From the IMG/VR virus record IMGVR_UViG_3300029258_002996: a stretch of DNA of 64,000 nucleotides; one strand, written 5' to 3'. The DNA comes from a virus. Position numbers and translations under genes: made by a program. Of the stretch, positions 36,461-58,119 are shown one piece after another (the first letter of the stretch is position 1; each line of letters starts with the position of its first letter). Under the pieces are notes generated by a model. The model was not told the origin of the DNA. It searched no databases and was given only the letters and a program-made list of their open reading frames with translations.

Positions 36461-39004
36461 TTAACCCGGGGGTAAAACCTTCTTTCCCGAAACCGCCAAA
36501 GAAGCCGGAATAAGACGCACCCCGGCATCTCCGGACAAACCCGCCGTAGTATCATCCGAATAGTCGCGCAGAGTGAACTTACCCTCAGTATCCTGCTCTG
36601 CTCTTCTCTTCGCTTGCTCCTTTATATGATCGCGAGTCCGGTCTCGGATGATTTCCCCGTGCGTCCGTCCTTCTCGTTCCACATTGAGAATGCCGGTCTC
36701 GTTCAAAACAAAACGTGTCATCGGAGGAGCGAGGACTTCGAGACCGGGAACGACTTCTCCCATATTCTTCGCAAAACCCAACGCGCTCTCTACCGATTGA
36801 GCAGCAGTAGGATCGTAAGTGCCTGAGATGCGCTCTAGCTCACGACCACCGGGACTCCACCGACGACCGGTGTAGGGATCGATGGCAATTTGATTCATCC
36901 AAACCAAATCCCCGCTTTCCGTTTTCTTTTTCATCCAATCGGGCGCACGTTGAGGAGCGGCTTCACCTCGCATGTATTGTTCGGCAAGCTCTTGAGCCCT
37001 TTCCGATTGCTGCAACTCTTCGGGAGACATCGACGCCAACTTATCCAGATCTTGTTGTCTCGGAGGTTCGTAGTACTTTTGCCTACCAAAAAATAAATTC
37101 AAGATAGTCCCCACGGTGCCAGGAAACATTGCCGAGAGTTTCTGGGACGAATTGTACAAAGAATCCTCAATCTTCTGCCAGTTGGTCCCCATATCACGCC
37201 AAATAGAAGAAACCTTTTCCCACAGACGATCCATCACCAGATCAACCTCACCTGACTTGAACCCGTAGTAAAGAGCTGGGAAAGTTTTTACACCTACGAT
37301 GAGAAGAGCAACAATATTGGTAAGGATCCCAAAAAGACCCTCCGAAACACCAGAAATCATATCGATCAATTCACGACGGGTAACATCCAAGGTCGAAACC
37401 GCCTCACGCTCACGACCAAACGCATCTTTCAGGTTCCGAACCTGGCTTTTATCCAGATCGGCCAACTTACCAACTTCACCCAGTTCCTCCGTCAAATCGT
37501 GAATCAACGCCGCGTCGCCAACCGAAACACTTAGAATATCGCTGACCGCCATGATTCTCTGGGCACGGCTTCCTGCCAACTGACGCATCACCACGTTAGA
37601 AAAGGCTTTCAAAAGCTTTTCGAGAAACTCGTCACTACCCCCACCCTCTTTCAAACGACTTAGACCGTCCTTGAACTGCTGCACGAGATCGAGTCCGCGC
37701 GCCTGCTCATCCCCCGTAATGTCGCGCATCAGCTCGATTTTCAATTTATCTCCGATATTTTGAAATGCCTCCAACAAATTTACAGCCACGCCCACTGCCT
37801 GTCGTCCTGCGAATTTTCGATTGAGACCCATCTCCTCGTAATGATCGGTGATTCGGTTAACCATGACCGCCACGAATTCAACATTGCCGCCGAGCTTTCG
37901 AAGCGCATCCTCACTATCCAAGACGGCTCCAATGAATTTTTCAGTACCGATTCTACTTCGTTGCGCGGCCCCTGCGATTTTCATGTAGGATTTAAGTGCT
38001 TCGTGAGCGCCCATCGCGTAGTTGTGCATAAACTCCACGGCACGCTGCATTGAAGTTCCGTCCGCGACGTGAAAGTGCTTATCGAGCGCCAAGGAAGCTT
38101 TCACTACGTTGTCCCCGACACCGCCAAGACCTTTGTCAAATTCCTTCAAAAAATCGTCCGCCTCTACTCCGGCATCGACGAGCAGCTTAGCAGTCGCCTG
38201 TACATCTTTCCGCGCGAGTCGATACCGCCACTGAGCGTGTTCTGCGAAGCTGCTCAGGTTACGAACCGCTCGTTGAGTTTTCCCACTCATCAAAGAATCG
38301 AAAGAAGATTGAAAAACGTTCGCCATCTCCCCTAGCTCAGCGCGCTTACGATCTTTCTCCCGGTATCCAATCGAAAGAGCCCCGAACAGCCCGCTGACAA
38401 AACCTCCACCGAGCCGGGAAAGTTTATCGGGGAGCTTCTTTAACAAATCTCCGATTCCTTCGTAAGCTTTCAAAACAGCAGCTTCAATTTTACTGGTGGC
38501 TTCCCGAGATTCCTTCGCGGCTTCCTTTCGAACGCCAAACACACCTTCGGAAGCTTTCATAGTTTCCTTGAAAGTCCCTTTGACCTCTTCTTTTGCGCTC
38601 TTCATGTCACGCTCGGCCATGCCAATCGCAGACTCTACCGATTGATGTTGCGGATCCTGCGGCGACGGTTTTTTCTTGAAAACTTTATCGAGCTTCACCT
38701 CTTTCATTGTCGCAAGGTTTTCTACGATCCGCCTCGCCTCCCGTTGTTGAGCCTCCAGATAAAAAGCGATGCGCCCCTGGTCGGCGGCTCCGAGTGGGGC
38801 GGGCTCCGGGAGACTTGCCAAAGCGGATGATATCGGCAAATCCATCCCCAACGTTAAATCGTAAAACGAAGACACATCCTGAGCGGTGCCGACCGCGATG
38901 TCCTGAACGGTCGCTCCAAATTCGGTATAGGAACGTTGAAGATTCGCAACCTGACTTTGCAAACCAGTAAGATCAAGTTCTACCTTTGGTATTTCCTCAG
39001 CCAT
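36461..39004 (-). CDS. Tape-measure-like protein 2
   Basis: Helical, 847 aa; GEMANVF, FAEHAQWRY, HYEEMGL. Confidence 0.65.
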   Translation of the reverse strand: MAEEIPKVELDLTGLQSQVANLQRSYTEFGATVQDIAVGTAQDVSSFYDLTLGMDLPISSALASLPEPAPLGAADQGRIAFYLEAQQREARRIVENLATMKEVKLDKVFKKKPSPQDPQHQSVESAIGMAERDMKSAKEEVKGTFKETMKASEGVFGVRKEAAKESREATSKIEAAVLKAYEGIGDLLKKLPDKLSRLGGGFVSGLFGALSIGYREKDRKRAELGEMANVFQSSFDSLMSGKTQRAVRNLSSFAEHAQWRYRLARKDVQATAKLLVDAGVEADDFLKEFDKGLGGVGDNVVKASLALDKHFHVADGTSMQRAVEFMHNYAMGAHEALKSYMKIAGAAQRSRIGTEKFIGAVLDSEDALRKLGGNVEFVAVMVNRITDHYEEMGLNRKFAGRQAVGVAVNLLEAFQNIGDKLKIELMRDITGDEQARGLDLVQQFKDGLSRLKEGGGSDEFLEKLLKAFSNVVMRQLAGSRAQRIMAVSDILSVSVGDAALIHDLTEELGEVGKLADLDKSQVRNLKDAFGREREAVSTLDVTRRELIDMISGVSEGLFGILTNIVALLIVGVKTFPALYYGFKSGEVDLVMDRLWEKVSSIWRDMGTNWQKIEDSLYNSSQKLSAMFPGTVGTILNLFFGRQKYYEPPRQQDLDKLASMSPEELQQSERAQELAEQYMRGEAAPQRAPDWMKKKTESGDLVWMNQIAIDPYTGRRWSPGGRELERISGTYDPTAAQSVESALGFAKNMGEVVPGLEVLAPPMTRFVLNETGILNVEREGRTHGEIIRDRTRDHIKEQAKRRAEQDTEGKFTLRDYSDDTTAGLSGDAGVRLIPASLAVSGKKVLPPG

Positions 39005-41322
39005 TAATCTGACGGTGGAAGTGTCCGCTCCTTGTGTTTGATATCCGCCTGGGCGATTGCTTCAGAAGATATGACCACTTCGGCACGCCGAGGGTTTGCC
39101 ATGATTTCGCGCTCTTTGGCGTTGGCTAACGGTTCTGGCTTGGCCCGCTCTTGGTCACGCACTGCCTTGACTTCGGAACCGCGAGGCATTCCAGGATGCT
39201 TCGGAGGCGGTTCGCTTTCTTCCGTAGCCGAGTCCGGAGGAGCTACCGCAGGGGGTTCCGGGGTCGCAGACTCGGGGATCCGTTTACCTACGGTCCCCGC
39301 AGCTCCGGTCGCAAGCCCTTTCGCCGCTCTCCAGGCACCTTTGAACAGTTCAATTGGGCTTCCGGACGTACCGCGACCCACAACTCTCGGAGTCGTCGGC
39401 TGATCTTCCCTACGAGGTCCTTCAAGGTTTCCACTCGCAGCTCGTTTCAATATATCCAGCGGACCGCCTAGAGCCTCTGAGACTGATCCCGGAACTTCTT
39501 CCAGCCCTTCCATTGCCTGGACGACTCCCTCCCCCAAAGTTCCGACGAGCATTTTCATCTCGTCACCGATCTTCGTCAGCTCCCGATTCCCCTCTTCCCC
39601 TCCCCTTAAAGTAGCGCTGATAAGACGAGGCAACGAAGTGATGCCTACCGTCAGGATAGCCAAAATTGAAGTCAAAACCTTCAAAAGACCGTTCCCAACC
39701 CCAGCCAAAGCGTTGATAAGCTTCCTTTCCGTCTGTTCCAACGTGGAAACCGCTTTTCTATTGATCTCGAACGCCTGCTGAACTGCGCGCTTCTGTTCCG
39801 GAGCAAGCTTTTGAAAATCGTTGTACTTCTTGAGTTCCTCCCGCGCATCCAGCAACGTAGCTGCTGTCTGGGTCTGCATGCCTTGGTTTTCCAAAAACAA
39901 GATAGCTTCGGAACGACCACGACCCTCCAGAGCCCACGCGGTAAGGTGCATGGTCGCTTCGACAAGGAAACCTTCGTCCTCACCGCGAGCAGCTCGGGCA
40001 GCCCCCTCCTCGTACTTTACGAATGCTGCATGCGCCTCCATGCCAGGGAACATCCGACGCGCTAGCTCAAGCTTGGAACTACTGCCAAGGTTGGCTACGG
40101 CGCCCGTGTAGTTATCTACAAACCGAGCTGCCATTTCCCCAGCATGCTGCGGATGGAGTCCCATTCGGCGATAGTGCCGCTCGATATTCACCATAATGTT
40201 CGCAACATCACGAACGTCGATACCGTATTGCTGCATCGCCGAAGCACCGGACATCACCGCGTTGATGAACTTGTCGATTCCGGCCCCGCTGCGCTGCGCA
40301 GCCATCCCGAAACCGATGTAATCCTTAGTCGCCTTCTCCAACGTGTCACCGTAGTCAGAAACCAAGGTAATCACGTTTGACATCGCAGTACCCTGAGCCC
40401 TGTGGAGATGGGCATCCAGCGCCATTGTGGCAACTACGGCATTCTGACCAACGTACCCCAAGTCTTCGCTAATTCTTTTTTCGAAATCCTCGCGTCGATA
40501 TCCAGCTTGCGCCATCTGACTGACAACGCCCTGCGTTTCTTCCTTGCTGATCCCGTAAAACCACTGAGCGTGTTCTTGAAAAGCACTGAACCATCCAATG
40601 GTTTTTTCGAGAGACCCCGGGCCTGAAAGTCGCTCACCGGTAGCTTCCAGTACGTTGGCCATTTCCCCGCGTTGCGCGGTGAGGCGCGCGTCCTCTTTCC
40701 TACCCAAAATCATCCAGTTGATGAGCGTGCCGATGACTCCCCCACCGACCCCTGGAATGTTACTCAAGAGACTTCCAAGAGACTGTTTCAGCCCCTTCAA
40801 TTCACTTTCCGCGTACTGTAAGAGTTGCGCAACACCTTTTTTGAACACTTCCAGCTCGTCTTTCAACGTGCGCTTCATCTCTTTGTGCTGCTGCTCGACT
40901 TCGGACATCGTGGCACGCGCCACATCCGCCATCTCCAGGACTGCCTTGATTTCTTTCGAGACGCGCTGAAGCTCCGGAGGAGTCCCGACGCCTGCTTCGC
41001 CGCCAACCTGGATCCCAGACAAGCGACTCATGTTGGCGGCTACGGTTTCGCTCTGCCTAGAAAGATTTTCAAGATTTCGGACCGTGGAGCCCATGCCTCG
41101 CTGAATCGATTGAGCCGATTGATCCAGTTGCGGAATCATGGTTTGCAGAGAGGCTGAAACTCCTTCTGTGGATTGTCTGAGAGCTTGCGTATCGGTGGTC
41201 GCAGCGTTCACTACCTCACGCACTGCCATGCCGAAATCGGTATAGTCCCGCGTCAGCTCGTTGATCTGATTATCGAACTCAGAAAAATCAAACGAAAGCA
41301 GATAGTCTTTGGCAACCGCCAT
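39004..41322 (-). CDS. Tape-measure-like protein 1
   Basis: Helical, 772 aa, directly after the chaperone frameshift product; GEMANVL, FQEHAQWFY, HYRRMGL. Confidence 0.68.
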   Translation of the reverse strand: MAVAKDYLLSFDFSEFDNQINELTRDYTDFGMAVREVVNAATTDTQALRQSTEGVSASLQTMIPQLDQSAQSIQRGMGSTVRNLENLSRQSETVAANMSRLSGIQVGGEAGVGTPPELQRVSKEIKAVLEMADVARATMSEVEQQHKEMKRTLKDELEVFKKGVAQLLQYAESELKGLKQSLGSLLSNIPGVGGGVIGTLINWMILGRKEDARLTAQRGEMANVLEATGERLSGPGSLEKTIGWFSAFQEHAQWFYGISKEETQGVVSQMAQAGYRREDFEKRISEDLGYVGQNAVVATMALDAHLHRAQGTAMSNVITLVSDYGDTLEKATKDYIGFGMAAQRSGAGIDKFINAVMSGASAMQQYGIDVRDVANIMVNIERHYRRMGLHPQHAGEMAARFVDNYTGAVANLGSSSKLELARRMFPGMEAHAAFVKYEEGAARAARGEDEGFLVEATMHLTAWALEGRGRSEAILFLENQGMQTQTAATLLDAREELKKYNDFQKLAPEQKRAVQQAFEINRKAVSTLEQTERKLINALAGVGNGLLKVLTSILAILTVGITSLPRLISATLRGGEEGNRELTKIGDEMKMLVGTLGEGVVQAMEGLEEVPGSVSEALGGPLDILKRAASGNLEGPRREDQPTTPRVVGRGTSGSPIELFKGAWRAAKGLATGAAGTVGKRIPESATPEPPAVAPPDSATEESEPPPKHPGMPRGSEVKAVRDQERAKPEPLANAKEREIMANPRRAEVVISSEAIAQADIKHKERTLPPSD

Positions 41323-41323
41323 T

Positions 41324-42148
41324 TCAGTCCGTTTCGATTACAACGCGGCTTCGCTTGCGCTTCGCCGGAATTTCATCCAAGGAACCTTCGGATTCGATCC
41401 TCACGGGGATCTCCTCGGTTTCTCCTACATCTTTCTTTCGTTTCGCCTCCTCGCGAAGCTCTCTTCTAGCTTGTCCGATGGTTCGGGCTCTTCTCGGCAT
41501 CAGATCAATCTGCTCGGCATCGAGATCTTCCTTCGACACCACGAGACTCTCCAGCATCTTCTGCATCATGGGATCCCCCCAAGAAAGAGATTCCTGAAGC
41601 TCGTCAGGCTCGTTATCAAATTGGATATCACCTTCAGCCATGAAGGCTTCTAACTCTTCAGGAGTCAACTCCGGTTCCGATTCTCGGTCGGTTACAAATT
41701 CGGAGCCTTCGACTTCGAGATCCTGACGGACTTGTTCTTGGGTATGGTACTCCCCTTGCTTTTTGAGGATTCCAGCCACTACGTCCTCGCGACCCATTCC
41801 CAGCATCAACGGGAGATACTCACCTTCCTGCGGCAAGCGCAGTAGTCCCGTATGAGGGTCCTCGACCGGCATCAAGTTGACCCCGAGAACGGAAATAACC
41901 TCGTCTCGAACCGCATCCATGATGGCCTTCATCTCGTCGTATCTGCGCTCCTCGTTCCTCTGAATCGCAGCGTCTTCGAACGCCCACTGCGTTTCATTCA
42001 TGTTCCTCAACCGAGGATCCCCTATCGGGATGTTTCGCTGCGTCAAGATCTGCGCCTTGATCTGCAAATGCGAAACTATTTTTCTCCAGAAGGGGAAAGT
42101 TCGGTCCCAGAGGGGTCGATACCCTCGTCCGAACTCTCCCCGGAGGAT
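41324..42148 (-). CDS. C-terminal (gpT-like) part of tail assembly chaperone, reached by -1 frameshift
   Basis: Frame is -1 relative to 42076..42612 and reads KKILRGEFGRGY from the A7 run. Confidence 0.8.
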   Translation of the reverse strand: MLRGEFGRGYRPLWDRTFPFWRKIVSHLQIKAQILTQRNIPIGDPRLRNMNETQWAFEDAAIQRNEERRYDEMKAIMDAVRDEVISVLGVNLMPVEDPHTGLLRLPQEGEYLPLMLGMGREDVVAGILKKQGEYHTQEQVRQDLEVEGSEFVTDRESEPELTPEELEAFMAEGDIQFDNEPDELQESLSWGDPMMQKMLESLVVSKEDLDAEQIDLMPRRARTIGQARRELREEAKRKKDVGETEEIPVRIESEGSLDEIPAKRKRSRVVIETD

Positions 42149-42612
42149 TTTTTTAACGCATCCTGAGCGTTCGACCTGCGGTCCTCCATCCTCTGCCACT
42201 CATCCCACAAGTCCGAAATGACTTCTGGAAAACGGTCCGCGAGGAACTTCATCAGGTGTTCCGCCGTGAAGTACTTCGCAGAGTACGGCCCCTTTCCCTC
42301 CACGATCTCAAGCGCCCTCCGGCTCTCCTCGGTTGCGTCCCATTCCTCTCGAAAGAATTCGAAAACGGGAGTGCCGTTGATCTGTCGAATTCCGATTGCC
42401 AACGTAGGGAGCCGCCACGAGCTAACGGCGCTCAGCTTCGAGCCGAGATTGATGTAGCCGTTTCTCCAGTTCGACTCCTCTTCGTTGAGCAGCCGCATCT
42501 TGAACTCGAAGCCTTTCACGTTGCAGGTGTGCTCGATGGTCTCGCCGTCCAGTTCCTTGGCAAGATCCATCAGGACTTGTTTCGGATTTACGTTTTTCTG
42601 TTCGGTAGACAT
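42076..42612 (-). CDS. Tail assembly chaperone (gpG-like)
   Basis: Between tube and tape measure; carries slippery site. Confidence 0.8.
   Translation of the reverse strand: MSTEQKNVNPKQVLMDLAKELDGETIEHTCNVKGFEFKMRLLNEEESNWRNGYINLGSKLSAVSSWRLPTLAIGIRQINGTPVFEFFREEWDATEESRRALEIVEGKGPYSAKYFTAEHLMKFLADRFPEVISDLWDEWQRMEDRRSNAQDALKKSSGESSDEGIDPSGTELSPSGEK
42148..42156 (-). other. Programmed -1 ribosomal frameshift site
   Basis: TTA AAA AAA (A-AAA-AAA heptamer) in frame in the chaperone gene, within the ORF overlap. Confidence 0.8.
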
Positions 42613-42615
42613 GGG

Positions 42616-42650
42616 GCTTTCGCTCCTCTCTCCCGCAATGCGGGGTAAAA
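42616..42650 (-). promoter_or_regulatory. Conserved double-hairpin leader element, copy 2
   Basis: TTTTACCCCGC-ATT-GCGGGAGA-GAG-GAGCGAAAGC; matches 54002..54036 and overlaps the GAGGAG RBS of the chaperone gene. Confidence 0.65.
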
Positions 42651-42657
42651 CGGGTTT

Positions 42658-43263
42658 TTAAATAGGTCTAACTTTTGTATAGTTCAGTGTTGCGTTCACC
42701 ATCACTATTCGGTCGCCCTGCGCTGACAAATTACGACCGATCTGAGAAAACCAGCATCCCGAATACCACCACTTTTCAACCTCAAAATCTCCGGTGCCGG
42801 TCTCTATCTTTTCGATTTTTTCATCGGTAAGTCCGACGAAATTCAAAGCCTTGATCTGCCCTTCTCCTATTTTGTCAACCACGTCAGAAGTTTTATTGCC
42901 CAATTTGTCCAGCCAAGGAAAGGACCATTTGATACCGACATCCCCCACATAGCGGATCCACTTCTCCTCCACGTCGAAAGGGTTGTGCTGGTTCGTGAGC
43001 ATCCAGTAGGCATTCGGGTTTCCCCACACCTCCTCCATTTTCGCCCTATACAGATCGTATCGGGAAACTTGGATGGTGAGGTTCGTAGCCGTCGCGGGAA
43101 CTTGCTCAAGGGGGTTACCTACTCCGACTGCGTCGATCTCGTACAGAGGAGCCACTCCGCGAGATTGACTCGGAGCCCAGGTCTGGATCTGACCGATGGT
43201 GTAACCGCCAGCTCGAATGGATACGGCATGACTGGTACGAACCGTAGTTTCCGGGACTGGCAT
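42658..43263 (-). CDS. Tail tube paralog 2 (with insertion)
   Basis: Shares RTSHAV, IGQIQTWAP, IQVSRYDL, GCWFSQIGRNL, QGDRIVMVNATLNY with the upstream tube gene. Confidence 0.75.
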   Translation of the reverse strand: MPVPETTVRTSHAVSIRAGGYTIGQIQTWAPSQSRGVAPLYEIDAVGVGNPLEQVPATATNLTIQVSRYDLYRAKMEEVWGNPNAYWMLTNQHNPFDVEEKWIRYVGDVGIKWSFPWLDKLGNKTSDVVDKIGEGQIKALNFVGLTDEKIEKIETGTGDFEVEKWWYSGCWFSQIGRNLSAQGDRIVMVNATLNYTKVRPI

Positions 43264-43267
43264 TTCG

Positions 43268-43720
43268 TTATGCGGTCTGTTTGATCCGCACGTAGTTGAG
43301 AGTCGCGTTCACCATCACGATTCGATCACCCTGCGCTTGCAGGTTTCTACCGATCTGGGAAAACCAGCACCCTATGTACTCATATTTCTCAGGAGACCCG
43401 CTAGGATTCACCCACTTCTCCGTAATAGTGAGGGGGTTCGACTGTCGAGAGAGCATATTGAGGTCCGGGTTCCCCCAAATCTCCTCCATCTTCGCAGAAA
43501 ACAAATCATAGCGACTAACCTGAATCGTAAGACCGGTGATGTTCCCGGGTACGTTCTCAGTCACTTCGCCAGAAGTCTGCGCCTTCAACTCATATGCAGG
43601 TGTGATCGTCCGGGACTGGTTTGGAGCCCACGTTTGGATCTGTCCAATAACGTATGAATTGTACTGGATGGTGACCGCATGGCTCGTCCGAATGTTTGTT
43701 GCCGGAATTGGGAATGTCAT
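43268..43720 (-). CDS. Major tail tube protein
   Basis: 150 aa directly after sheath, strong GGAGG RBS. Confidence 0.8.
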   Translation of the reverse strand: MTFPIPATNIRTSHAVTIQYNSYVIGQIQTWAPNQSRTITPAYELKAQTSGEVTENVPGNITGLTIQVSRYDLFSAKMEEIWGNPDLNMLSRQSNPLTITEKWVNPSGSPEKYEYIGCWFSQIGRNLQAQGDRIVMVNATLNYVRIKQTA

Positions 43721-52153: not shown

Positions 52154-52609
52154 CTATACGTGATCACCGACAGTGCGGGACACGAAGACTACTCTGCCCG
52201 AAACGGGCGAAGCTTTTTGGTTTGTCAGCTCCACTACAATGGGAAATCCCTTGAGCGCGCTGTCCTGAACCGATCTCCCAAAAGGGATGTTCTTGTTGCC
52301 TGGAAGCAGCGTAGCGTCTTCCCAAATCACATCGCAGAGTTCCGCGCCCCCTGCGATGCTGCCGCTTCCTTGAGATTTTCCTCGAACATGAGTAGAACCT
52401 TCCTTGAAAGGTTCCCCAGTCCAGCCACCGCCGTACAAAACCTCCCAATCGAGATCAAGCGCAGCGGTAACCAAACCCCCGCTCAAAACCCAAATCGTCA
52501 TGTTGCGAATGGGCTCGCTCACCGGGGCGTCCCAAAGACGAATCGTATCCTGAGCGCCTCCGGATGCCGTCAGCTCGAATTCCCGTACTGTTACCCTGAA
52601 AGCTCCCAT
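52154..52609 (-). CDS. Putative virion protein, tandem paralog B
   Basis: Shares LDWEVxYGGGWTGEPFK, GSTH, ELCD, RTVGDHV with 52619..53062. Confidence 0.65.
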   Translation of the reverse strand: MGAFRVTVREFELTASGGAQDTIRLWDAPVSEPIRNMTIWVLSGGLVTAALDLDWEVLYGGGWTGEPFKEGSTHVRGKSQGSGSIAGGAELCDVIWEDATLLPGNKNIPFGRSVQDSALKGFPIVVELTNQKASPVSGRVVFVSRTVGDHV

Positions 52610-52618
52610 TCCTCGCTC

Positions 52619-53062
52619 CTATACGTGATCGCCCACGGTACGGCACACAAAAACCGCATTCAACGTCAGCGGTACGGCCTTGTTATTCTTCAGGTACAAG
52701 ACGACCGGAAAGCCCTGCAAGGCACTGTCTGAGACCGATCTTCCCGCTGGTATGTTCTGGTTCGGAGGAAGAAGTGTTCCGTCTTCCCAAACCATGTCGC
52801 ACAGCTCTGTACCGCCTGCGATAGCACCGCTTGCCTGAGATTTGCCCTTCAAGTGAGTAGAGCCCGATTTGAAAGGCTCCCCGGTCCAGCCGCCACCGTA
52901 GAAAACCTCCCAATCGAGGTTCCCCGCAGCAGTCGGGACTCCTCCATTGAGAAGCCAAATAGTCATATCTTTAAAAGGCTCACTCAAAGGAGCTGCCCAG
53001 ATACGAGTAGCAGCACCTGCTGCAAGAGTTACGGTACGGACAGTTTCTTGGAAAGCTCCCAT
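52619..53062 (-). CDS. Putative virion protein, tandem paralog A
   Basis: Paralog of the downstream gene; GAGGTG RBS. Confidence 0.65.
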   Translation of the reverse strand: MGAFQETVRTVTLAAGAATRIWAAPLSEPFKDMTIWLLNGGVPTAAGNLDWEVFYGGGWTGEPFKSGSTHLKGKSQASGAIAGGTELCDMVWEDGTLLPPNQNIPAGRSVSDSALQGFPVVLYLKNNKAVPLTLNAVFVCRTVGDHV

Positions 53063-53144: not shown

Positions 53145-53975
53145 TTACTCGGGTGCGCCGTCGATTTTTGACTCCAGCTCTTTCTGCGCGAACTTCTTGA
53201 CCGTCTTCCAGTAGCCTTTCCCCATCAGATACTCAAGATCGGCCCTCGTCAGCTCCATCGCCCGAAGCTCATCGAGCATCTGATTGGCGGACATCCTTTT
53301 GTCCTTCTCCACATCGTCGCCGACTTGCGCGCACAATCCGATCACCCGAGCAGTGACAATGTCGTCCGGCGATTGAGGAGCAGCAGCCTGCTCTTCCGTC
53401 AGTTCCTCGATAGTCCTGCGAGGCCCGGCGTCCTTGTTGGTGTACGCCTGCTTGTTCTGGATCGCGGCCTGTCCTTGGTGCGCCTCATCCATCTCGGTTT
53501 GCGCATCCGTACCTCGGCTCTTCGCCTTCTTTTCGTAGTAAGCGAGATACTCCTCCTCCTCCAGCAAGATCAACGCCGGAGGACGGCGATTGATCATCTT
53601 CCGAAAATCGGGAGAATCCTTGATCGCGCTGAAAGGCACCAACTGGGTGAGGTTGATTGGATCCGGGTTTCGTGGAATCAACACGGATTCGGTTCGACCC
53701 ATTCCCATCTCGAACATCAGGGAAACCTGCGTATTCGACTTGTTCTGGACATACACATCATGCTCTTCCCTAAAGTACTTAGTGAAGTTCGTGATCGCCC
53801 CTGCTGCACTTGGCATATTAGCCTCCTTTGGCTTTTCGATCAGTTGTATGGCGTAGGGGCGACGTCCCGCGACTCGCGCCCTACCCCGGTTCACCAGTTT
53901 CCGCGCCCTGGCGGGGTGGGTGGCCGACAAAATGGTTCCATCAGGTCCAAGGACTGGAACACGATTCGTCGACAC
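53145..53975 (-). CDS. Protein with N-terminal RRXRR/PLMP (IscB-type) domain; internal second start at 53816
   Basis: RVPVLGPDGTILSATHPARARKLVNRGRARVAGRRPYAIQL; no RuvC or HNH motifs follow; AAGGAGG precedes in-frame ATG 53816. Confidence 0.72.
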   Translation of the reverse strand: MSTNRVPVLGPDGTILSATHPARARKLVNRGRARVAGRRPYAIQLIEKPKEANMPSAAGAITNFTKYFREEHDVYVQNKSNTQVSLMFEMGMGRTESVLIPRNPDPINLTQLVPFSAIKDSPDFRKMINRRPPALILLEEEEYLAYYEKKAKSRGTDAQTEMDEAHQGQAAIQNKQAYTNKDAGPRRTIEELTEEQAAAPQSPDDIVTARVIGLCAQVGDDVEKDKRMSANQMLDELRAMELTRADLEYLMGKGYWKTVKKFAQKELESKIDGAPE

Positions 53976-54110
53976 ACCAACTATCCTCGTTGGGAATCAG
54001 AGCTTTCGCTCAATCTCCCGCCTACGCGGGGTTAAAGAGTCGGAGGGAAGGGGACGCTCAGCGTCCCCATACGAAGGCGTTACCGTCTTCGCCCCTCTTC
54101 CTCAGTTTTC
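53976..54110 (-). ncRNA. Highly structured intergenic leader containing double-hairpin element copy 1
   Basis: Five hairpins in 135 nt: 54072-54091 (GUAA loop), 54050-54068 (8-bp stem), 54017-54030, 54000-54011 (GAAA loop), 53977-53993 (GAGGA in loop). Confidence 0.55.
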
Positions 54111-55385
54111 CTACTTCGAGCCCTTGGCGCACGCACGCGCGTTCGGGATCACGAATCCGATCATCTCGACAAAGGCCCAGCCTTTCACCGTCTCCTGCTG
54201 CGCGTACTTGTTGTACGGCTCGGAGAACAGCTCGATCCTGACGCCCATCTCGCCCATGTATTCGGCTCCGGTCGTCGCGTAGAAGGTCCCTGCCGGGATC
54301 ACTTCCTCGACACCGGTACCGGCTGCGGTGAGGATCTGCGCGTTCAAGATATTGCCGATGTAACCGGCCAGGATCAGCTCACGCTCGGTGACCGGATCCA
54401 CCGCAGCCGACATCGTCTTCACGACATCGGACAGCTCGGCACGAGAGATCAGGAAGTTCTCGACCATCAGACGATGGCGCTCGACCTGATACCGGACATC
54501 CTCGAAAGCGTTCAGGCCAAGAGAACCGAACGTGGTCACGGTATTCTCGGTCTGGGCAGCCTCGTCGATGATGGCGATACCGGCCTTGTCCTCCTGAAGC
54601 TCGATCTCCTGCCGCGCGGTGTCCTGAGCACGATCCAAGACATCGAAGTTCATCTGATAGATGTCCATGATGTCGATGGACGGGAAGCTCGTCACCTTCC
54701 ACTCGGGCGGGGTGACCCACTTCGTCTTGATCCTCGACTCGGGGGTCTGCCCGTCTTGGCCAACCACCCAGGCGACCGAACGGATATCCAGCGGCACGCG
54801 GAACAGCTCGGCCTGGGCCAGCTTGCGTACACGATAGATCTTCCGGGAGAAGCCTTCGTAGTCGAGAATCGCCTTGATCGGGAGCGCCAGCTCCTGACCG
54901 ACGATGTGGAAGCCCTGACCCGAGGGATCCTGGAGAGCCGCCGCCAAGATGTCCCGACGCGCTTCCTTCGAGATGCCCGACTCCGTGTCCGGACGGTAGA
55001 AGGAGAGCGCGTTGGCGTTCTGCTTCACCGTCTCGTTCAGGAGCTGATGCACCTGCGTCATCGCGTCGCGACGGTCGATGGCGTTGACCTCGCCTCTCGA
55101 ATCAAACATGCGGCGATCCGAACGTCCGCGAGTCGCGTGGCGGCTCGACGGATGATCGTAACGCTGCGGGTTGAAGGTACCGTCGCCCTGGAACAGGGTT
55201 TCGTCCTTCTTCGATCCGAACCGACTCCTCGGACGTGCAGCGAGTCTGCGCCGCTCGTCCTTCGGAGCTTCTTTCCGAGCCTGTCGGGGAGCGGGACGCT
55301 TACCCCGGGTAGGCTCACCTCGCCGAGCTGCCTTGGTGGGCACGGGACGGCGCTTCTTGGAAATCCTTTTGTACGGATTATTCAT
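54111..55385 (-). CDS. Major capsid protein (HK97 fold) with basic N-terminal extension
   Basis: ELALPIKAILDYEGFSRK, FDVLDRAQDTARQEIELQED, GWAFVEMIGFVIPN; follows protease/scaffold; strongly biased codon use. Confidence 0.88.
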   Translation of the reverse strand: MNNPYKRISKKRRPVPTKAARRGEPTRGKRPAPRQARKEAPKDERRRLAARPRSRFGSKKDETLFQGDGTFNPQRYDHPSSRHATRGRSDRRMFDSRGEVNAIDRRDAMTQVHQLLNETVKQNANALSFYRPDTESGISKEARRDILAAALQDPSGQGFHIVGQELALPIKAILDYEGFSRKIYRVRKLAQAELFRVPLDIRSVAWVVGQDGQTPESRIKTKWVTPPEWKVTSFPSIDIMDIYQMNFDVLDRAQDTARQEIELQEDKAGIAIIDEAAQTENTVTTFGSLGLNAFEDVRYQVERHRLMVENFLISRAELSDVVKTMSAAVDPVTERELILAGYIGNILNAQILTAAGTGVEEVIPAGTFYATTGAEYMGEMGVRIELFSEPYNKYAQQETVKGWAFVEMIGFVIPNARACAKGSK

Positions 55386-56196: not shown

Positions 56197-58119
56197 TTAG
56201 CTCAGAGTCCTCGCGCGCCCGAGCCTTTTCCCGAGCGCGGTACCTCCACTAAGAGCCTCACGGACTGTGTTGTTTGACATCCTTTTCGCGGGCATAGAGG
56301 TCGAGGATGCCCTCTTCGATTTCGTAAAATTCCCCTCGGCGGCGTCCCTCCGAACTCGGGCGGAACGTCGATTCCGGGAACTTGACTTCGCGATATGTGA
56401 AACTTCGCCACCAACCGGAACGGGGGCGAGTTCTTTCAGATCGGCTTCCACATCGGTCAGGTAGTCATCACTCTTTTCGAGTAAATCAGCAGCTTTCGAC
56501 AACAGTCGACCAACGAACTGATCATGACCTTCAGATGCAATAAGCTCGGTAAGCTCGACTGCGGTTCCGAGATCCATCGAAGCGTACTTCTCGCCGCTCG
56601 AAAACGAAATGTCACCAGCAGTCAGCACGTCGACTACCGCAACCTTCATCGGATGCTCATCGTGATTGAGAGCCATCCGAGCTGCGGCAATCCGAATCGC
56701 TCGCGTGAATTTTCGAATGAACGCTTCTTTCTCCGCCGCGATGTGTTTCTCCGCGCGCTTCTTGTAAAGATCGCGCAGATTTCTCGCAGTGGAGTGGCGA
56801 ATGTCGTCATCAGCTTCAGAAAGAACGTCGTTCGAAGGTTTGGGCTCGGGGGCCTGCTCGTCGTTGACAGCTTCGTCCTGGGTATTTCCGGAGGGCTTGG
56901 TCGGCTGCCCGTCCTTCGTAACGTTCTCCGCCATTTCGAGAATATCCCTGCCACTCTTCGTCGCCTTGAATCTCGCCCGGGACTTGGCAAGAGCTTTCTT
57001 CTTTTCGCCCGATTTGATCATGTCCGTCTTGACATCCGTAACGGTCGGCGGTTTCTCTCGGGTATCCACCTCGTTCCCCGGAAGAGACGAATCGGAATCG
57101 TCAGTGTGCTGCTCCTGCGCGTCAGTTTCGGAATCCGACAAAATACCCTCGGACTTCGGAGCGACTTCTTTGTCCGAATCCAGCTCGACACCTTCGTCCA
57201 CGCCCGCAGTGCGGAGCAATTTGGTATTGCAGAGCTGCGCAGCCACCTTGAAGCCTTTGTATACGGCGACGCCGTACACCTTGTTCGCCAATCTGCGAAG
57301 GGCTTCGAGATCCCGCTTGACCGCAGCATGCGGCTCCGCATAGAAAACAGGGCCGTAGTCTTCGTGCTGCGCGACTAGGTTCCTTTCGGGAGTGATTGCG
57401 ATTTTGATTTTCTTCGCTCTAGCGGTAGCCATCAAATCTCCTGTCGTCACTTCGGCCTCCTCGACGCCCATTTCGGCAGCAGAGATCTCGGACTCTTCCT
57501 TTTCCTTTTTCTTGTCTTGAAGAGTTCGAATATCCTTTCTTCCACGCTCCTGATCCATTGCCCTGCGAATCAGCTCACGACGGGCTTCCTTCATCTCGTC
57601 CGGCTTTTCGCCGTTTTTCGTCTCGTCCTTCTCGTCCTTCTCGTCCTTTTTCCCAGGACCTTTTTTAGAGCCCTCTCCCAGACCTTTCTCCTTTTTCGGA
57701 GGAAATCCCGAGGGTGGGGTAACGCCCTTCAGATCGATGTCCTTCTTATCTCCCCCGTCTTCTTTTTCCTCGCTCTTCTCCTCGGAACGGAACTCCTGGG
57801 TCTTTCCCTCGATGTCCTCGATAATCTCCTCTTCACGCTCTTCGTGCCCCTCGCTCTCGATAATCCCCTTGTCCTTCAGAAAATCGGCGACATACGTGAA
57901 AGCTTCGTCAGCATCCTTGGCATCTCGGAGCTTCTCCAAGATTTCCTCGAACCCCTCCGGAGTCTTCATCGCGGTCTTATTGCGAATCGATCTTTTGATA
58001 AGATCCGCAGTTTCCGCCTCGATCTGACGACGCTCCTGCGGGGTCAGATCCACCGTCCCGGCATCGTGAAGATTTTTAACTGTGGTGAAAAGCTGGATTC
58101 TTTCGAGGGGATTGGCCAT
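56197..58119 (-). CDS. Putative scaffolding protein
   Basis: 640 aa, highly charged low-complexity, between protease and capsid genes. Confidence 0.6.
   Translation of the reverse strand: MANPLERIQLFTTVKNLHDAGTVDLTPQERRQIEAETADLIKRSIRNKTAMKTPEGFEEILEKLRDAKDADEAFTYVADFLKDKGIIESEGHEEREEEIIEDIEGKTQEFRSEEKSEEKEDGGDKKDIDLKGVTPPSGFPPKKEKGLGEGSKKGPGKKDEKDEKDETKNGEKPDEMKEARRELIRRAMDQERGRKDIRTLQDKKKEKEESEISAAEMGVEEAEVTTGDLMATARAKKIKIAITPERNLVAQHEDYGPVFYAEPHAAVKRDLEALRRLANKVYGVAVYKGFKVAAQLCNTKLLRTAGVDEGVELDSDKEVAPKSEGILSDSETDAQEQHTDDSDSSLPGNEVDTREKPPTVTDVKTDMIKSGEKKKALAKSRARFKATKSGRDILEMAENVTKDGQPTKPSGNTQDEAVNDEQAPEPKPSNDVLSEADDDIRHSTARNLRDLYKKRAEKHIAAEKEAFIRKFTRAIRIAAARMALNHDEHPMKVAVVDVLTAGDISFSSGEKYASMDLGTAVELTELIASEGHDQFVGRLLSKAADLLEKSDDYLTDVEADLKELAPVPVGGEVSHIAKSSSRNRRSARVRRDAAEGNFTKSKRASSTSMPAKRMSNNTVREALSGGTALGKRLGRARTLS

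What the first reader, a model, noticed from the sequence alone, without database searches (positions are those of the whole stretch)
53145..54110. Candidate domesticated OMEGA module: IscB-type PLMP domain plus structured RNA leader behind the capsid gene
Seen: the first ~50 aa match the IscB/RRXRR N-terminus pattern (V.VL..DG..L..THPARARKL...G.A.V....P..IQL) but are fused to a phage protein with no RuvC or HNH; directly upstream is a 135-nt five-hairpin region, part of which recurs at 42616-42650. Established: in IscB loci the omega/HEARO RNA lies immediately upstream of the ORF and the PLMP domain contacts it. Inference: the phage kept only the RNA-binding domain and an RNA hairpin and uses them as a protein-operator pair that autoregulates this gene and co-regulates tail-chaperone/TMP translation. 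I know of no description of such a system.
Basis: partly seen in the sequence, partly recalled or inferred. Interest (0 to 1): 0.85.

Follow-up and report, generated by a model that had tools for sequence, protein, structure and literature searches.

The report
Nuclease-free IscB RNA-grip in phage
A large uncultured phage carries only the small RNA-gripping front domain of IscB (the transposon nuclease ancestral to Cas9), joined to a protein encoded next to its capsid gene; the RNA hairpin that this domain holds in IscB sits before this gene and a tail-assembly gene, which points to an undescribed translational switch.

Summary
ORF 53145-53975(-) begins with a 53-residue PLMP domain: Pfam RRXRR scores 33.6 bits against a cut-off of 25, and the model fits DtIsrB at Z 7.8, rmsd 2.0 A. 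It is fused in frame to a 223-aa phage protein (phrog_17686) that has no RuvC or HNH.

The fusion is kept in 39 of 40 related phage loci, with dN/dS of 0.01-0.19. An internal SD+ATG is conserved in all 40, so a long and a short isoform are likely.

The leader holds a conserved hairpin, H1 (TTTAAC-CCCGC..GCGGG-AG), followed by a small GNRA hairpin, H2. H1 has 17 different stem sequences in 23 relatives, and all of them pair. The same module precedes the tail-chaperone gene (42610-42650) here and in at least 9 relatives. In this 128-kb genome record the motif was found at these two sites plus one likely chance match.

Real iscB genes carry the same WWAC-hairpin-AG just before their ATG. It starts exactly where Rfam's HEARO model ends, which explains the lack of an Rfam hit.

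The one relative without PLMP lacks the hairpin at both sites.

Best reading (about 0.6): a PLMP-hairpin operator pair captured from an OMEGA element and used for translational control. Binding and repression are untested.

I found no publication describing it. This scan has already reported the same family on at least 14 other genomes.

The parts
54111..55385 (-). Major head protein gene, immediately upstream
   Evidence: phrog_2522 major head protein, E 6e-57
54047..54097 (-). Two GC-rich hairpins just after the capsid stop codon. Their sequence varies between relatives. They look terminator-like or stabiliser-like but have no T-run here.
   Evidence: Fold. Every relative has a different long GC hairpin at this position. 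The scan calls no canonical terminator.
54015..54036 (-). H1, site A: TTTAAC | CCCGC GTAG GCGGG | AG. This is the counterpart of the omegaRNA terminal Shine-Dalgarno hairpin.
   Evidence: Coordinates verified. 23 relatives carry 17 different stems, all paired, with invariant AC/AG flanks. The same motif lies in front of cellular iscB genes.
54000..54011 (-). H2, site A: GAGC-GAAA-GCTC, a small GNRA-type hairpin. It is the second of the tandem pair.
   Evidence: Relatives show covarying stems: GGGC/GCCC, GGGT/ACCC, CAGC/GCTG, GGAT/ATCC.
53977..53993 (-). Third small hairpin, CCAAC-GAGGATA-GTTGG. It presents the long-form SD (GAGGA) in its loop, one base before the GTG start.
   Evidence: Folds; sequence
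53817..53975 (-). PLMP domain coding part (residues 1-53) of the long isoform, with its GTG start at 53973-53975
   Evidence: Pfam PF14239. Structural match to IscB/IsrB PLMP. Purifying selection. A start codon lies 18-23 codons before the HPARAR motif in all relatives.
53814..53828 (-). Internal ribosome-binding site AAGGAGG (53822-53828) and ATG (53814-53816). This is the start of the short isoform, which is the body protein alone.
   Evidence: Conserved in all 40 loci although the linker residues differ. The PLMP-less L039 starts exactly here. The window's own genome was gene-called from this ATG (P0001).
53145..53816 (-). Body protein, 223 aa, phrog_17686, function unknown
   Evidence: BFVD relatives are uncharacterised proteins of jumbo phages PaBG, Motura and BcepSaruman. 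No informative PDB fold was found.
42610..42650 (-). Site B module: TTTTAC | CCCGC ATT GCGGG | AG AGAGGAGCGAAAGCCCC ATG. H1 is followed by the SD, a GNRA mini-hairpin and the start codon of the tail-chaperone-like gene.
   Evidence: Conserved before the orthologous gene in G001-G005, G008, G010, G012 and G014 with different stems.
42076..42612 (-). Tail assembly chaperone-like gene (178 aa). Its 3' end overlaps ORF 41324-42199, and it lies upstream of the tape-measure gene 39004-41322.
   Evidence: Position between tube-like proteins (phrog_985) and the tape measure (phrog_167). It has no family hit of its own.

Best explanation
The phage lineage captured two pieces of an IscB/IsrB-type OMEGA element: the roughly 50-residue PLMP domain, and the 3'-terminal Shine-Dalgarno hairpin(s) of the omegaRNA that this domain clamps in IscB/IsrB. 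The nuclease, the guide and the rest of the RNA scaffold are gone.

The PLMP domain is translated as an N-terminal extension of the protein encoded after the capsid gene. It uses a weak GTG start. A strong internal SD+ATG makes the body protein alone, so the long PLMP-bearing form is probably the minor product.

The PLMP domain is proposed to bind the tandem hairpins H1/H2. These occur in its own leader and directly over the ribosome-binding site of the tail-chaperone gene. Binding would then limit translation of the chaperone gene, of the frameshift partner and tape-measure genes behind it, and of its own long form.

What is shown: the domain identity, its selection, the nested start, the structure and covariation of the hairpins, their equivalence to the iscB leader hairpin, their restriction to essentially two sites per genome, and their absence where PLMP is absent.

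What is inferred: RNA binding by this PLMP domain, and the regulatory outcome.
For: PLMP domain:
- Pfam match 33.6 bits above the cut-off.
- Top PDB hits are all IscB/IsrB; Z 7-8.6 with rmsd 2-3 A.
- The fusion is in frame in 39 of 40 loci.
- dN/dS is 0.01-0.19, as low as in the body.
- The internal SD+ATG is kept in all loci.

Hairpins:
- H1 has 17 distinct stems in 23 relatives, all paired.
- In the alignment, 99.1% of cells are paired, 5 of 8 pairs show double changes, and 0 of 500 shuffles reach the observed score.
- 22 of 39 motif hits in 729 kb fall in the PLMP leaders; the rest are at shuffle level.
- Whole genomes have the motif at the PLMP and chaperone leaders only, plus about background. 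The shuffle mean is 0.6 for the own genome.
- The site B module is conserved in at least 9 other genomes.

Link to OMEGA:
- Cellular iscB leaders have WWAC-hairpin-AG within 16 nt of the ATG in 24 of 40 cases, against 21 of 800 shuffles.
- HEARO RF02033 ends at the UUAC flank.
- In IsrB the PLMP domain binds the tandem terminal hairpins SL7/SL8 and contacts the SD, and the authors suggest expression control (PMC9581776). In IscB the terminal hairpins are recognised by PLMP mostly independently of sequence (PMC9640706).

Natural controls:
- PLMP-less L039/G006 has plain AAGGAG leaders at both sites.
- Each phage genome has one RRXRR hit and no full IscB.
Against: - There is no direct evidence of binding or repression.
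- In this window H1/H2 end about 25 nt before the long-form SD, so occlusion of that start is not obvious.
- Rctr197k has a divergent PLMP and a leader H1 but no hairpin before its chaperone gene. G009 and G013 are ambiguous at that site.
- L022 and L025 have PLMP without a clear H1 in the immediate leader.
- The co-absence rests on one lineage on a 37-kb fragment, and its tree position is a long branch.
- In IscB/IsrB the PLMP domain also packs against RuvC/TI, so a protein-protein role cannot be excluded.
- The PLMP motif itself is replaced here (ILSA/LSYT).
- Part of the 100% pairing of H1 is by construction, because the finder required at least 4-5 bp.
Confidence: 0.6

Rival explanations
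1. Domain and hairpins are both functional but unconnected. The hairpins would be ordinary translation-initiation, mRNA-stability or processing structures read by host or other phage factors. The PLMP domain, which has an IF3-N-like fold, would serve a protein-protein or ribosome-related role on the body protein.
For: - No binding data exist.
- PLMP contacts RuvC/TI in IsrB.
- Rctr197k, L022 and L025 break the strict pairing of domain and hairpin.
- At site B the SD and AUG are already sequestered by RNA structure alone.
Against: - The hairpin has the same flanks, first C-G pair and position as the hairpin in front of real iscB genes.
- It is restricted to two or a few sites per genome.
- It is missing at both sites in the PLMP-less relative.
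Confidence: 0.17
2. The PLMP-hairpin contact has a tethering role, not a repressive one. The long isoform would grip its own mRNA or leader RNA to bring RNA into an assembly. Possibilities are co-translational assembly of head and tail components, an RNA cofactor for the body protein, or setting the long:short isoform ratio only.
For: - The deep-clade leaders are 150-200-nt, five-helix RNAs with 18 covarying pairs. That is more than an operator needs.
- H1/H2 at site A do not overlap the start in this window.
- Variants with two PLMP domains exist.
Against: - A split form exists in which PLMP is a separate 71-aa protein upstream of the body gene, so covalent tethering to the body is not required.
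- At site B the module sits exactly on the SD and AUG of another gene.
Confidence: 0.13
3. A still RNA-guided system: the leader RNA would act as a guide that directs the body protein to a nucleic-acid target.
For: Ancestry from an RNA-guided nuclease. The body has an unknown fold.
Against: - There is no RuvC or HNH.
- There is no HEARO/omegaRNA scaffold or guide-like segment.
- The leader here is only 135 nt, and most of it is variable hairpins.
- The body protein exists without PLMP in other phages.
Confidence: 0.03
4. A decaying remnant of an IscB/IS200-605 insertion that happens to read into the next gene.
For: Only the first 48 of 174 RRXRR profile positions remain.
Against: The extension is kept in frame in 39 of 40 loci that are only 35-62% identical. 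It has its own conserved start and dN/dS of 0.01-0.19.
Confidence: 0.01

Closest known systems
IscB / IsrB OMEGA effectors with their omegaRNA (HEARO, Rfam RF02033; PDB 8DMB, 7UTN, 7XHT, 9K30)
   Same: - The N-terminal PLMP domain is homologous: Pfam hit, 35% identity, rmsd 2.0 A to DtIsrB.
- The gene is preceded by a hairpin with the same WWAC 5' flank, C-G first pair and AG(G) 3' flank containing the SD. In many phage lineages this hairpin is one of a tandem pair, like SL7/SL8.
- In the solved complexes PLMP clamps exactly these hairpins.
   Different: - No RuvC, bridge helix, HNH or TI domains.
- No guide and no omegaRNA scaffold (no HEARO hit).
- No transposon context.
- PLMP is fused to an unrelated phage protein that has its own internal start.
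- A second hairpin copy controls a different gene.
IshB (PLMP + HNH, about 180 aa) and other short RRXRR proteins
   Same: PLMP is used outside the full IscB architecture. Loci of IshB size turned up among the cellular hits (L076, L081).
   Different: IshB keeps a nuclease domain. Here no nuclease is present, and the partner is a phage head-region protein.
Phage translational repressor-operator pairs (T4 RegA, T4 gp32, MS2/PP7 coat protein with their operator hairpins); cited from general knowledge
   Same: A small phage protein is proposed to bind a hairpin at or next to the SD/AUG of its own and another late gene, in order to set expression.
   Different: - The protein fold is unrelated.
- Both the operator and the binding domain derive from a transposon RNA-guided nuclease.
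- The repressor domain rides on a second protein as an alternative isoform.
- Function is untested.
TldR: TnpB-derived, nuclease-dead RNA-guided transcription factors (PMC10705468)
   Same: A precedent for exaptation of OMEGA components for gene regulation.
   Different: TldR keeps the whole protein and its guide RNA and acts on DNA. Here only a 50-residue RNA-binding domain and a terminal hairpin survive, and the likely level of control is translation.
[quoted passage not shown]
   Same: Same small beta-alpha-beta fold, as noted for PLMP in PMC9581776. It appears among the Foldseek hits.
   Different: There is no sequence-level membership and no IF3 C-domain. The similarity is at fold level only.

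Membership tests
PLMP domain (N-terminal part of Pfam RRXRR, PF14239) | Profile match above the curated cut-off over the N-terminal ~50 positions | tested here: met
   33.6 bits against a cut-off of 25, profile positions 1-48. One such hit in each phage genome.
PLMP domain (N-terminal part of Pfam RRXRR, PF14239) | Small beta-sheet plus one helix fold that superposes on the PLMP domain of solved IscB/IsrB | tested here: met
   8dmb Z 7.8, rmsd 2.0 A over 48 residues. 9k30 Z 8.5. 9liq Z 6.9.
PLMP domain (N-terminal part of Pfam RRXRR, PF14239) | The eponymous P-L-M-P motif in strand beta-2 | tested here: not met
   The window has I-L-S-A and most relatives have L-S-Y-T or L-E-Y-T. The following HPARAR(K/R)L helix is conserved.
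IscB / IsrB OMEGA nuclease | Split RuvC nuclease domain with an arginine-rich bridge helix | tested here: not met
   The Pfam match stops at profile position 48 of 174. The remainder is phrog_17686.
IscB / IsrB OMEGA nuclease | HNH domain (IscB) | tested here: not met
   No HNH family hit at E <= 1.
IscB / IsrB OMEGA nuclease | Upstream omegaRNA with a guide and a pseudoknotted scaffold (HEARO) | tested here: not met
   No RF02033 hit in the window leader at E <= 10, nor in four relatives at E <= 1. Cellular loci score 130-157 bits.
IscB / IsrB OMEGA nuclease | 3'-terminal SD-containing hairpin directly before the ORF | tested here: met
   Same WWAC-stem-AG motif in the phage leaders and in 24 of 40 cellular iscB leaders.
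Translational repressor-operator pair | Operator structure overlapping or abutting the SD/AUG of the regulated gene | tested here: met
   Site B: H1-AG-SD-GNRA hairpin-ATG. Site A in this window: about 25 nt upstream of the SD. Site A in L019, L026, L034, L035 and L037: directly before the start.
Translational repressor-operator pair | Specific protein-RNA binding and repression of translation | not testable with these tools
   Needs EMSA, toeprinting and reporter assays.

The most novel reading that the evidence does not exclude
PLMP plus its hairpin would be a portable, nuclease-free RNA-protein cassette that phages took from OMEGA elements. They would use it as a translational operator system that links a head-region gene to tail-chaperone and tape-measure synthesis. 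The same cassette also occurs as a stand-alone 60-75-aa protein, as tandem PLMP pairs and on other fusion partners. That would make it a so far unrecognised family of small RNA-binding regulators derived from the ancestor of Cas9.
Probability: 0.5. Interest if true: 0.85.

Novelty: new variant of a known kind. Interest (0 to 1): 0.75.

Why it matters
- It would be the first case in which only the RNA-clamping domain of IscB/IsrB, together with its cognate hairpin, has been exapted without any nuclease.
- It would support, in a natural system, the suggestion drawn from the IsrB structure that PLMP binding at the SD hairpin controls expression.
- It would add a compact (about 50 aa plus about 25 nt) protein-RNA pair that could serve as an orthogonal translational switch or RNA tag.
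- For phage biology, it would reveal a post-transcriptional link between head-region and tail-assembly genes in a large group of uncultured phages of roughly 130-210 kb.
- The effect is directly testable with standard binding and reporter assays.

Tried and rejected
- Rfam scans of the window leader and of four deep-clade loci found no HEARO or other family. This is explained by the 3' end of the HEARO model.
- The narrow covariance model R1 finds one strong hit per locus but only 12 bits for the window's second copy. It is too closely fitted to the CCCGC stems to serve as a genome-wide detector, so a pattern finder with shuffle controls was used instead.
- A MAFFT alignment of the whole leaders was poor because the first hairpins vary.
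- The search for related loci with the single chaperone protein found nothing. Orthologues were reached through the genome search instead.
A narrower alignment worked.
- The body protein has no Pfam family. It gave only generic helical matches with Z < 6 in two VIA-align searches, only unnamed viral clusters in the ESM Atlas, and uncharacterised jumbo-phage proteins in BFVD. Its function stays unknown.
- tblastn against 50,697 phage records finds only Virus Rctr197k.
- The consensus scan calls no sigma-70 promoter or intrinsic terminator in 53700-54400.
- The IS-remnant reading is rejected on the conservation data.
- Complex prediction was not used, because the open question is protein-RNA binding, not protein-protein binding.

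Full report
OBSERVATION

ORF 53145-53975 on the minus strand encodes 276 aa from a GTG start. Residues 6-53 match Pfam RRXRR (PF14239), but only profile positions 1-48 of 174. The score is E 4.5e-8 and 33.6 bits against a cut-off of 25. That part of the profile is the PLMP domain of IscB/IsrB.

The rest of the protein matches phrog_17686, of unknown function. The match runs from a point that puts the family's start at about residue 54. The gene upstream (54111-55385) is the major head protein (phrog_2522, E 6e-57).

An AlphaFold2 model built from 39 homologues has pLDDT 87.7. It shows a beta-beta-alpha-beta-beta domain (residues 6-45), a disordered linker (residues 50-56) and a separate body. 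The nine best Foldseek PDB hits are all IscB/IsrB-omegaRNA complexes. VIA-align places residues 4-53 on their N-terminal PLMP domains:
- 9k2z, Z 8.6
- 9k30, Z 8.5
- 8dmb (DtIsrB), Z 7.8, rmsd 2.0 A over 48 residues, 35% identity
- 9liq, Z 6.9

IS THE EXTENSION REAL?

A search of 5.8 billion proteins gave 53 homologues. About half are 270-300 aa and carry PF14239. The rest are calls of about 220 aa, including the call made on the window's own genome.

In IMG/VR, 40 related loci were found on contigs of up to 212 kb. In 39 of them the tblastn match begins at query residue 1-8. Reading the DNA confirms an open frame through the PLMP segment into the body. A start codon, mostly ATG, lies 18-23 codons before the HPARAR motif in every locus.

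Nei-Gojobori estimates for 14 pairs give dN/dS of 0.01-0.19 for the PLMP codons. For example, L032/L033 have pS 0.49 and pN 0.01. This is as low as in the body.

The extension is therefore translated and under purifying selection, and the IS-remnant reading is refuted. Each of four phage genomes has exactly one RRXRR hit and no complete IscB.

NESTED START

At the junction the window has AAGGAGG (53822-53828) seven bases before an ATG (53814-53816). All 40 loci keep an ATG there, with an SD-like AGGGAGG or AGGAGA 6-9 nt upstream, although the linker residues differ (PREDKM, SIRRKNM, IRRRIVM). The only relative without PLMP, L039, starts exactly at this ATG.

I therefore read the gene as giving two in-frame products. 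The long PLMP-body form starts at a weaker site (GTG here). The short body form starts at a strong site. This is inferred from sequence only.

A natural split form exists. In L133/L134 a 71-aa PLMP ORF ends in TAG, and 20 nt later the body gene begins (MQITNFTEFF..) behind its own SD. The covalent link is therefore not obligatory.

THE RNA

The 135-nt leader folds into five hairpins (-59.1 kcal/mol, z -3.9). Comparison with relatives shows three kinds of element:
- The first, GC-rich hairpins after the capsid stop differ in every phage.
- Two elements are conserved. H1 is TTTAAC | CCCGC GTAG GCGGG | AG (54015-54036). H2 is GAGC-GAAA-GCTC (54000-54011).
- A third small hairpin presents the long-form SD in its loop (53977-53993).

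In 23 relatives H1 has 17 different 5' arms, and all of them pair. The first pair is always C-G, and pairs 2-5 each show three to five pair types. The flanks are constant: [T/A][T/A]AC before the stem and AG[G/A] after it. Part of this pairing is by construction, because the finder required a stem.

On a model-fitted alignment of near relatives, 99.1% of cells are paired and 5 of 8 pairs carry double changes. The covariation score is 0.301 against 0.143 in shuffles (0 of 500 reach it), and slid controls reach at most 61% pairing.

The motif is rare. In 729 kb of loci it gave 39 hits. Of these, 22 lie in the PLMP leaders and the rest are at shuffle level.

THE SECOND COPY

CCCGC-N-GCGGGAG occurs exactly twice in the window, against 0.12 expected. 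The second copy (42610-42650) reads TTTTAC | CCCGC ATT GCGGG | AG AGAGGAGCGAAAGCCCC ATG. It runs straight into the start of ORF 42076-42612.

That ORF lies between tube-like proteins (phrog_985) and the tape-measure gene (phrog_167). Its 3' end overlaps ORF 41324-42199, which is the usual place and layout of tail assembly chaperones. The fold sequesters both the SD and the AUG.

In the whole 127,888-bp genome record the motif is found at these two sites plus one likely chance hit; the shuffle mean is 0.6.

The same module precedes the orthologous gene in G001, G002, G003, G004, G005, G008, G010, G012 and G014. The stems differ from genome to genome and differ from the site-A stem of the same genome. 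G009 and G013 are ambiguous, and Rctr197k lacks it. In the deep clade H1 alone sits 5-8 nt before the ATG, with its 3' arm forming the SD (GAAGGAGG). A third conserved site also appears there.

LINK TO OMEGA

A search of 185,579 species genomes with the phage PLMP gave 57 loci. They are mostly cyanobacteria, Streptomyces and Chloroflexota, often in several copies, with ORFs of IscB, IsrB or IshB size.

Directly before their ATG they carry the same motif. Examples are gTTAC CCCT tttt AGGG AG (L074), ATTAC CCTA gtaa TAGG AG (L101) and ATTAC TGCC gaaa GGCA AGG (L116). It is present in 24 of 40 distinct leaders, against 21 of 800 shuffles.

L084, L101 and L116 score 130-157 bits with Rfam HEARO, and the model's last positions are '..CGAgGcgaAcauUAC'. 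The curated family thus stops at the 5' flank of this hairpin. That explains why the phage leaders give no Rfam hit.

Published structures fit this picture:
- In IsrB the PLMP domain binds the tandem hairpins SL7/SL8. [quoted passage not shown]
- In IscB the terminal hairpins are recognised by PLMP mainly without sequence specificity (PMC9640706).

The phage H1/H2 pair therefore corresponds to the part of the omegaRNA that PLMP holds.

NATURAL CONTROL

L039/G006 is the one relative without PLMP. It has unstructured AAGGAG leaders before both the body gene and the chaperone gene. On a tree of the body protein, both halves of a strongly supported split contain PLMP-bearing phages. L039 sits inside one half, which suggests loss. 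However, it is a long branch joined to another long branch (Rctr197k), so this is not settled.

Exceptions to the pairing of domain and hairpin are listed under evidence against.

MECHANISM

Most likely (about 0.6), the PLMP domain binds H1/H2 as it does in IscB/IsrB. At the chaperone leader this would cover the SD and AUG and repress translation. In its own leader it would limit the long form or otherwise act on the capsid-body intercistronic RNA. The result would be a coupling of a head-region protein to tail-chaperone and tape-measure output.

In this window the site-A hairpins do not overlap the long-form SD, so autoregulation is the weaker half of the model.

The rivals are:
- unconnected functions of domain and hairpins (0.17);
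- a tethering or RNP role (0.13);
- residual RNA guidance (0.03);
- a decaying remnant (0.01).

The body protein's function is unknown.

NOVELTY

Full-text searches for PLMP with phage, for RRXRR, and for IscB exaptation found no description of a nuclease-free PLMP fusion. The one GenBank relative, Virus Rctr197k, annotates the gene only as a misc_feature.

A profile search shows further non-nuclease PLMP architectures: stand-alone ORFs, tandem pairs, and double PLMP plus body.

This scan has already reported the same family on at least 14 other genomes, with similar readings. Those notes are not independent evidence.

I class the finding as a new variant of known kinds: translational operators, and exaptation of OMEGA parts.

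Noticed in passing
L133:1365-1640 and L134:560-830: Split form of the gene. A stand-alone 71-aa PLMP ORF (P0068) ends in TAG. 20 nt later the body gene (MQITNFTEFF..) starts behind its own SD. No clear H1 was seen upstream in this AT-rich phage.
   Followed up: partly
P0064, P0065, P0072: Proteins with two tandem PLMP domains and nothing else (165 and 194 aa), and one with two PLMP domains plus the body (402 aa). Many 60-75-aa stand-alone PLMP ORFs appear among 2652 profile hits.
   Followed up: partly
L021:5830-5988 and seven other deep-clade loci (alignment A9): The deep clade has a leader RNA of about 150-200 nt with five helices. RNAalifold predicts 32 pairs, 18 of them with compensatory changes. 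This includes H1, an H2-like GGG/CCC hairpin and three further helices that are absent from this window.
   Followed up: partly
G004:C1:137218 (-) and L028:8592 (+): A third conserved H1-type hairpin (TTTAC CCTGGTAT..ATACCAGG AGG) lies before a 121-aa ORF about 2 kb downstream of the PLMP gene in deep-clade phages. This window has no counterpart.
   Followed up: no
L126 (KX853510.1 60618-61757): Virus Rctr197k is the only GenBank relative. Its gene is annotated only as a misc_feature, 'similar to hypothetical protein'. It reads through as 379 aa with a divergent PLMP, an internal Met and an H1 in the leader.
   Followed up: yes
L069 (QMZE01000009.1) = L012: A 17,766-bp phage contig of this family is deposited as part of an Archaeoglobales MAG from Guaymas. 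This is likely a binning artefact or a host hint.
   Followed up: no
window 52154-52609 and 52619-53062; 42658-43263 and 43268-43720: Two tandem pairs of paralogous genes. One pair is 151 and 147 aa with no family. The other pair is tube-like, phrog_985, with 73-83% identical DNA stretches.
   Followed up: no
window 56197-58119: A 640-aa, very Lys/Glu/Asp-rich protein lies between the portal-side genes and the capsid gene. It has no family hit and is scaffold-like by position and composition.
   Followed up: no
L029:1440-1560: The stretch between the capsid gene and the PLMP leader contains a tRNA-like 3' end (..GGTTCGAATCCGAGGAGCTCCACCA).
   Followed up: no
L084:2253-2475, L101:2251-2476, L116:2264-2472: Rfam HEARO (RF02033) ends at the UUAC that flanks the terminal SD hairpin. 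The curated model therefore omits the hairpin that PLMP binds.
   Followed up: yes
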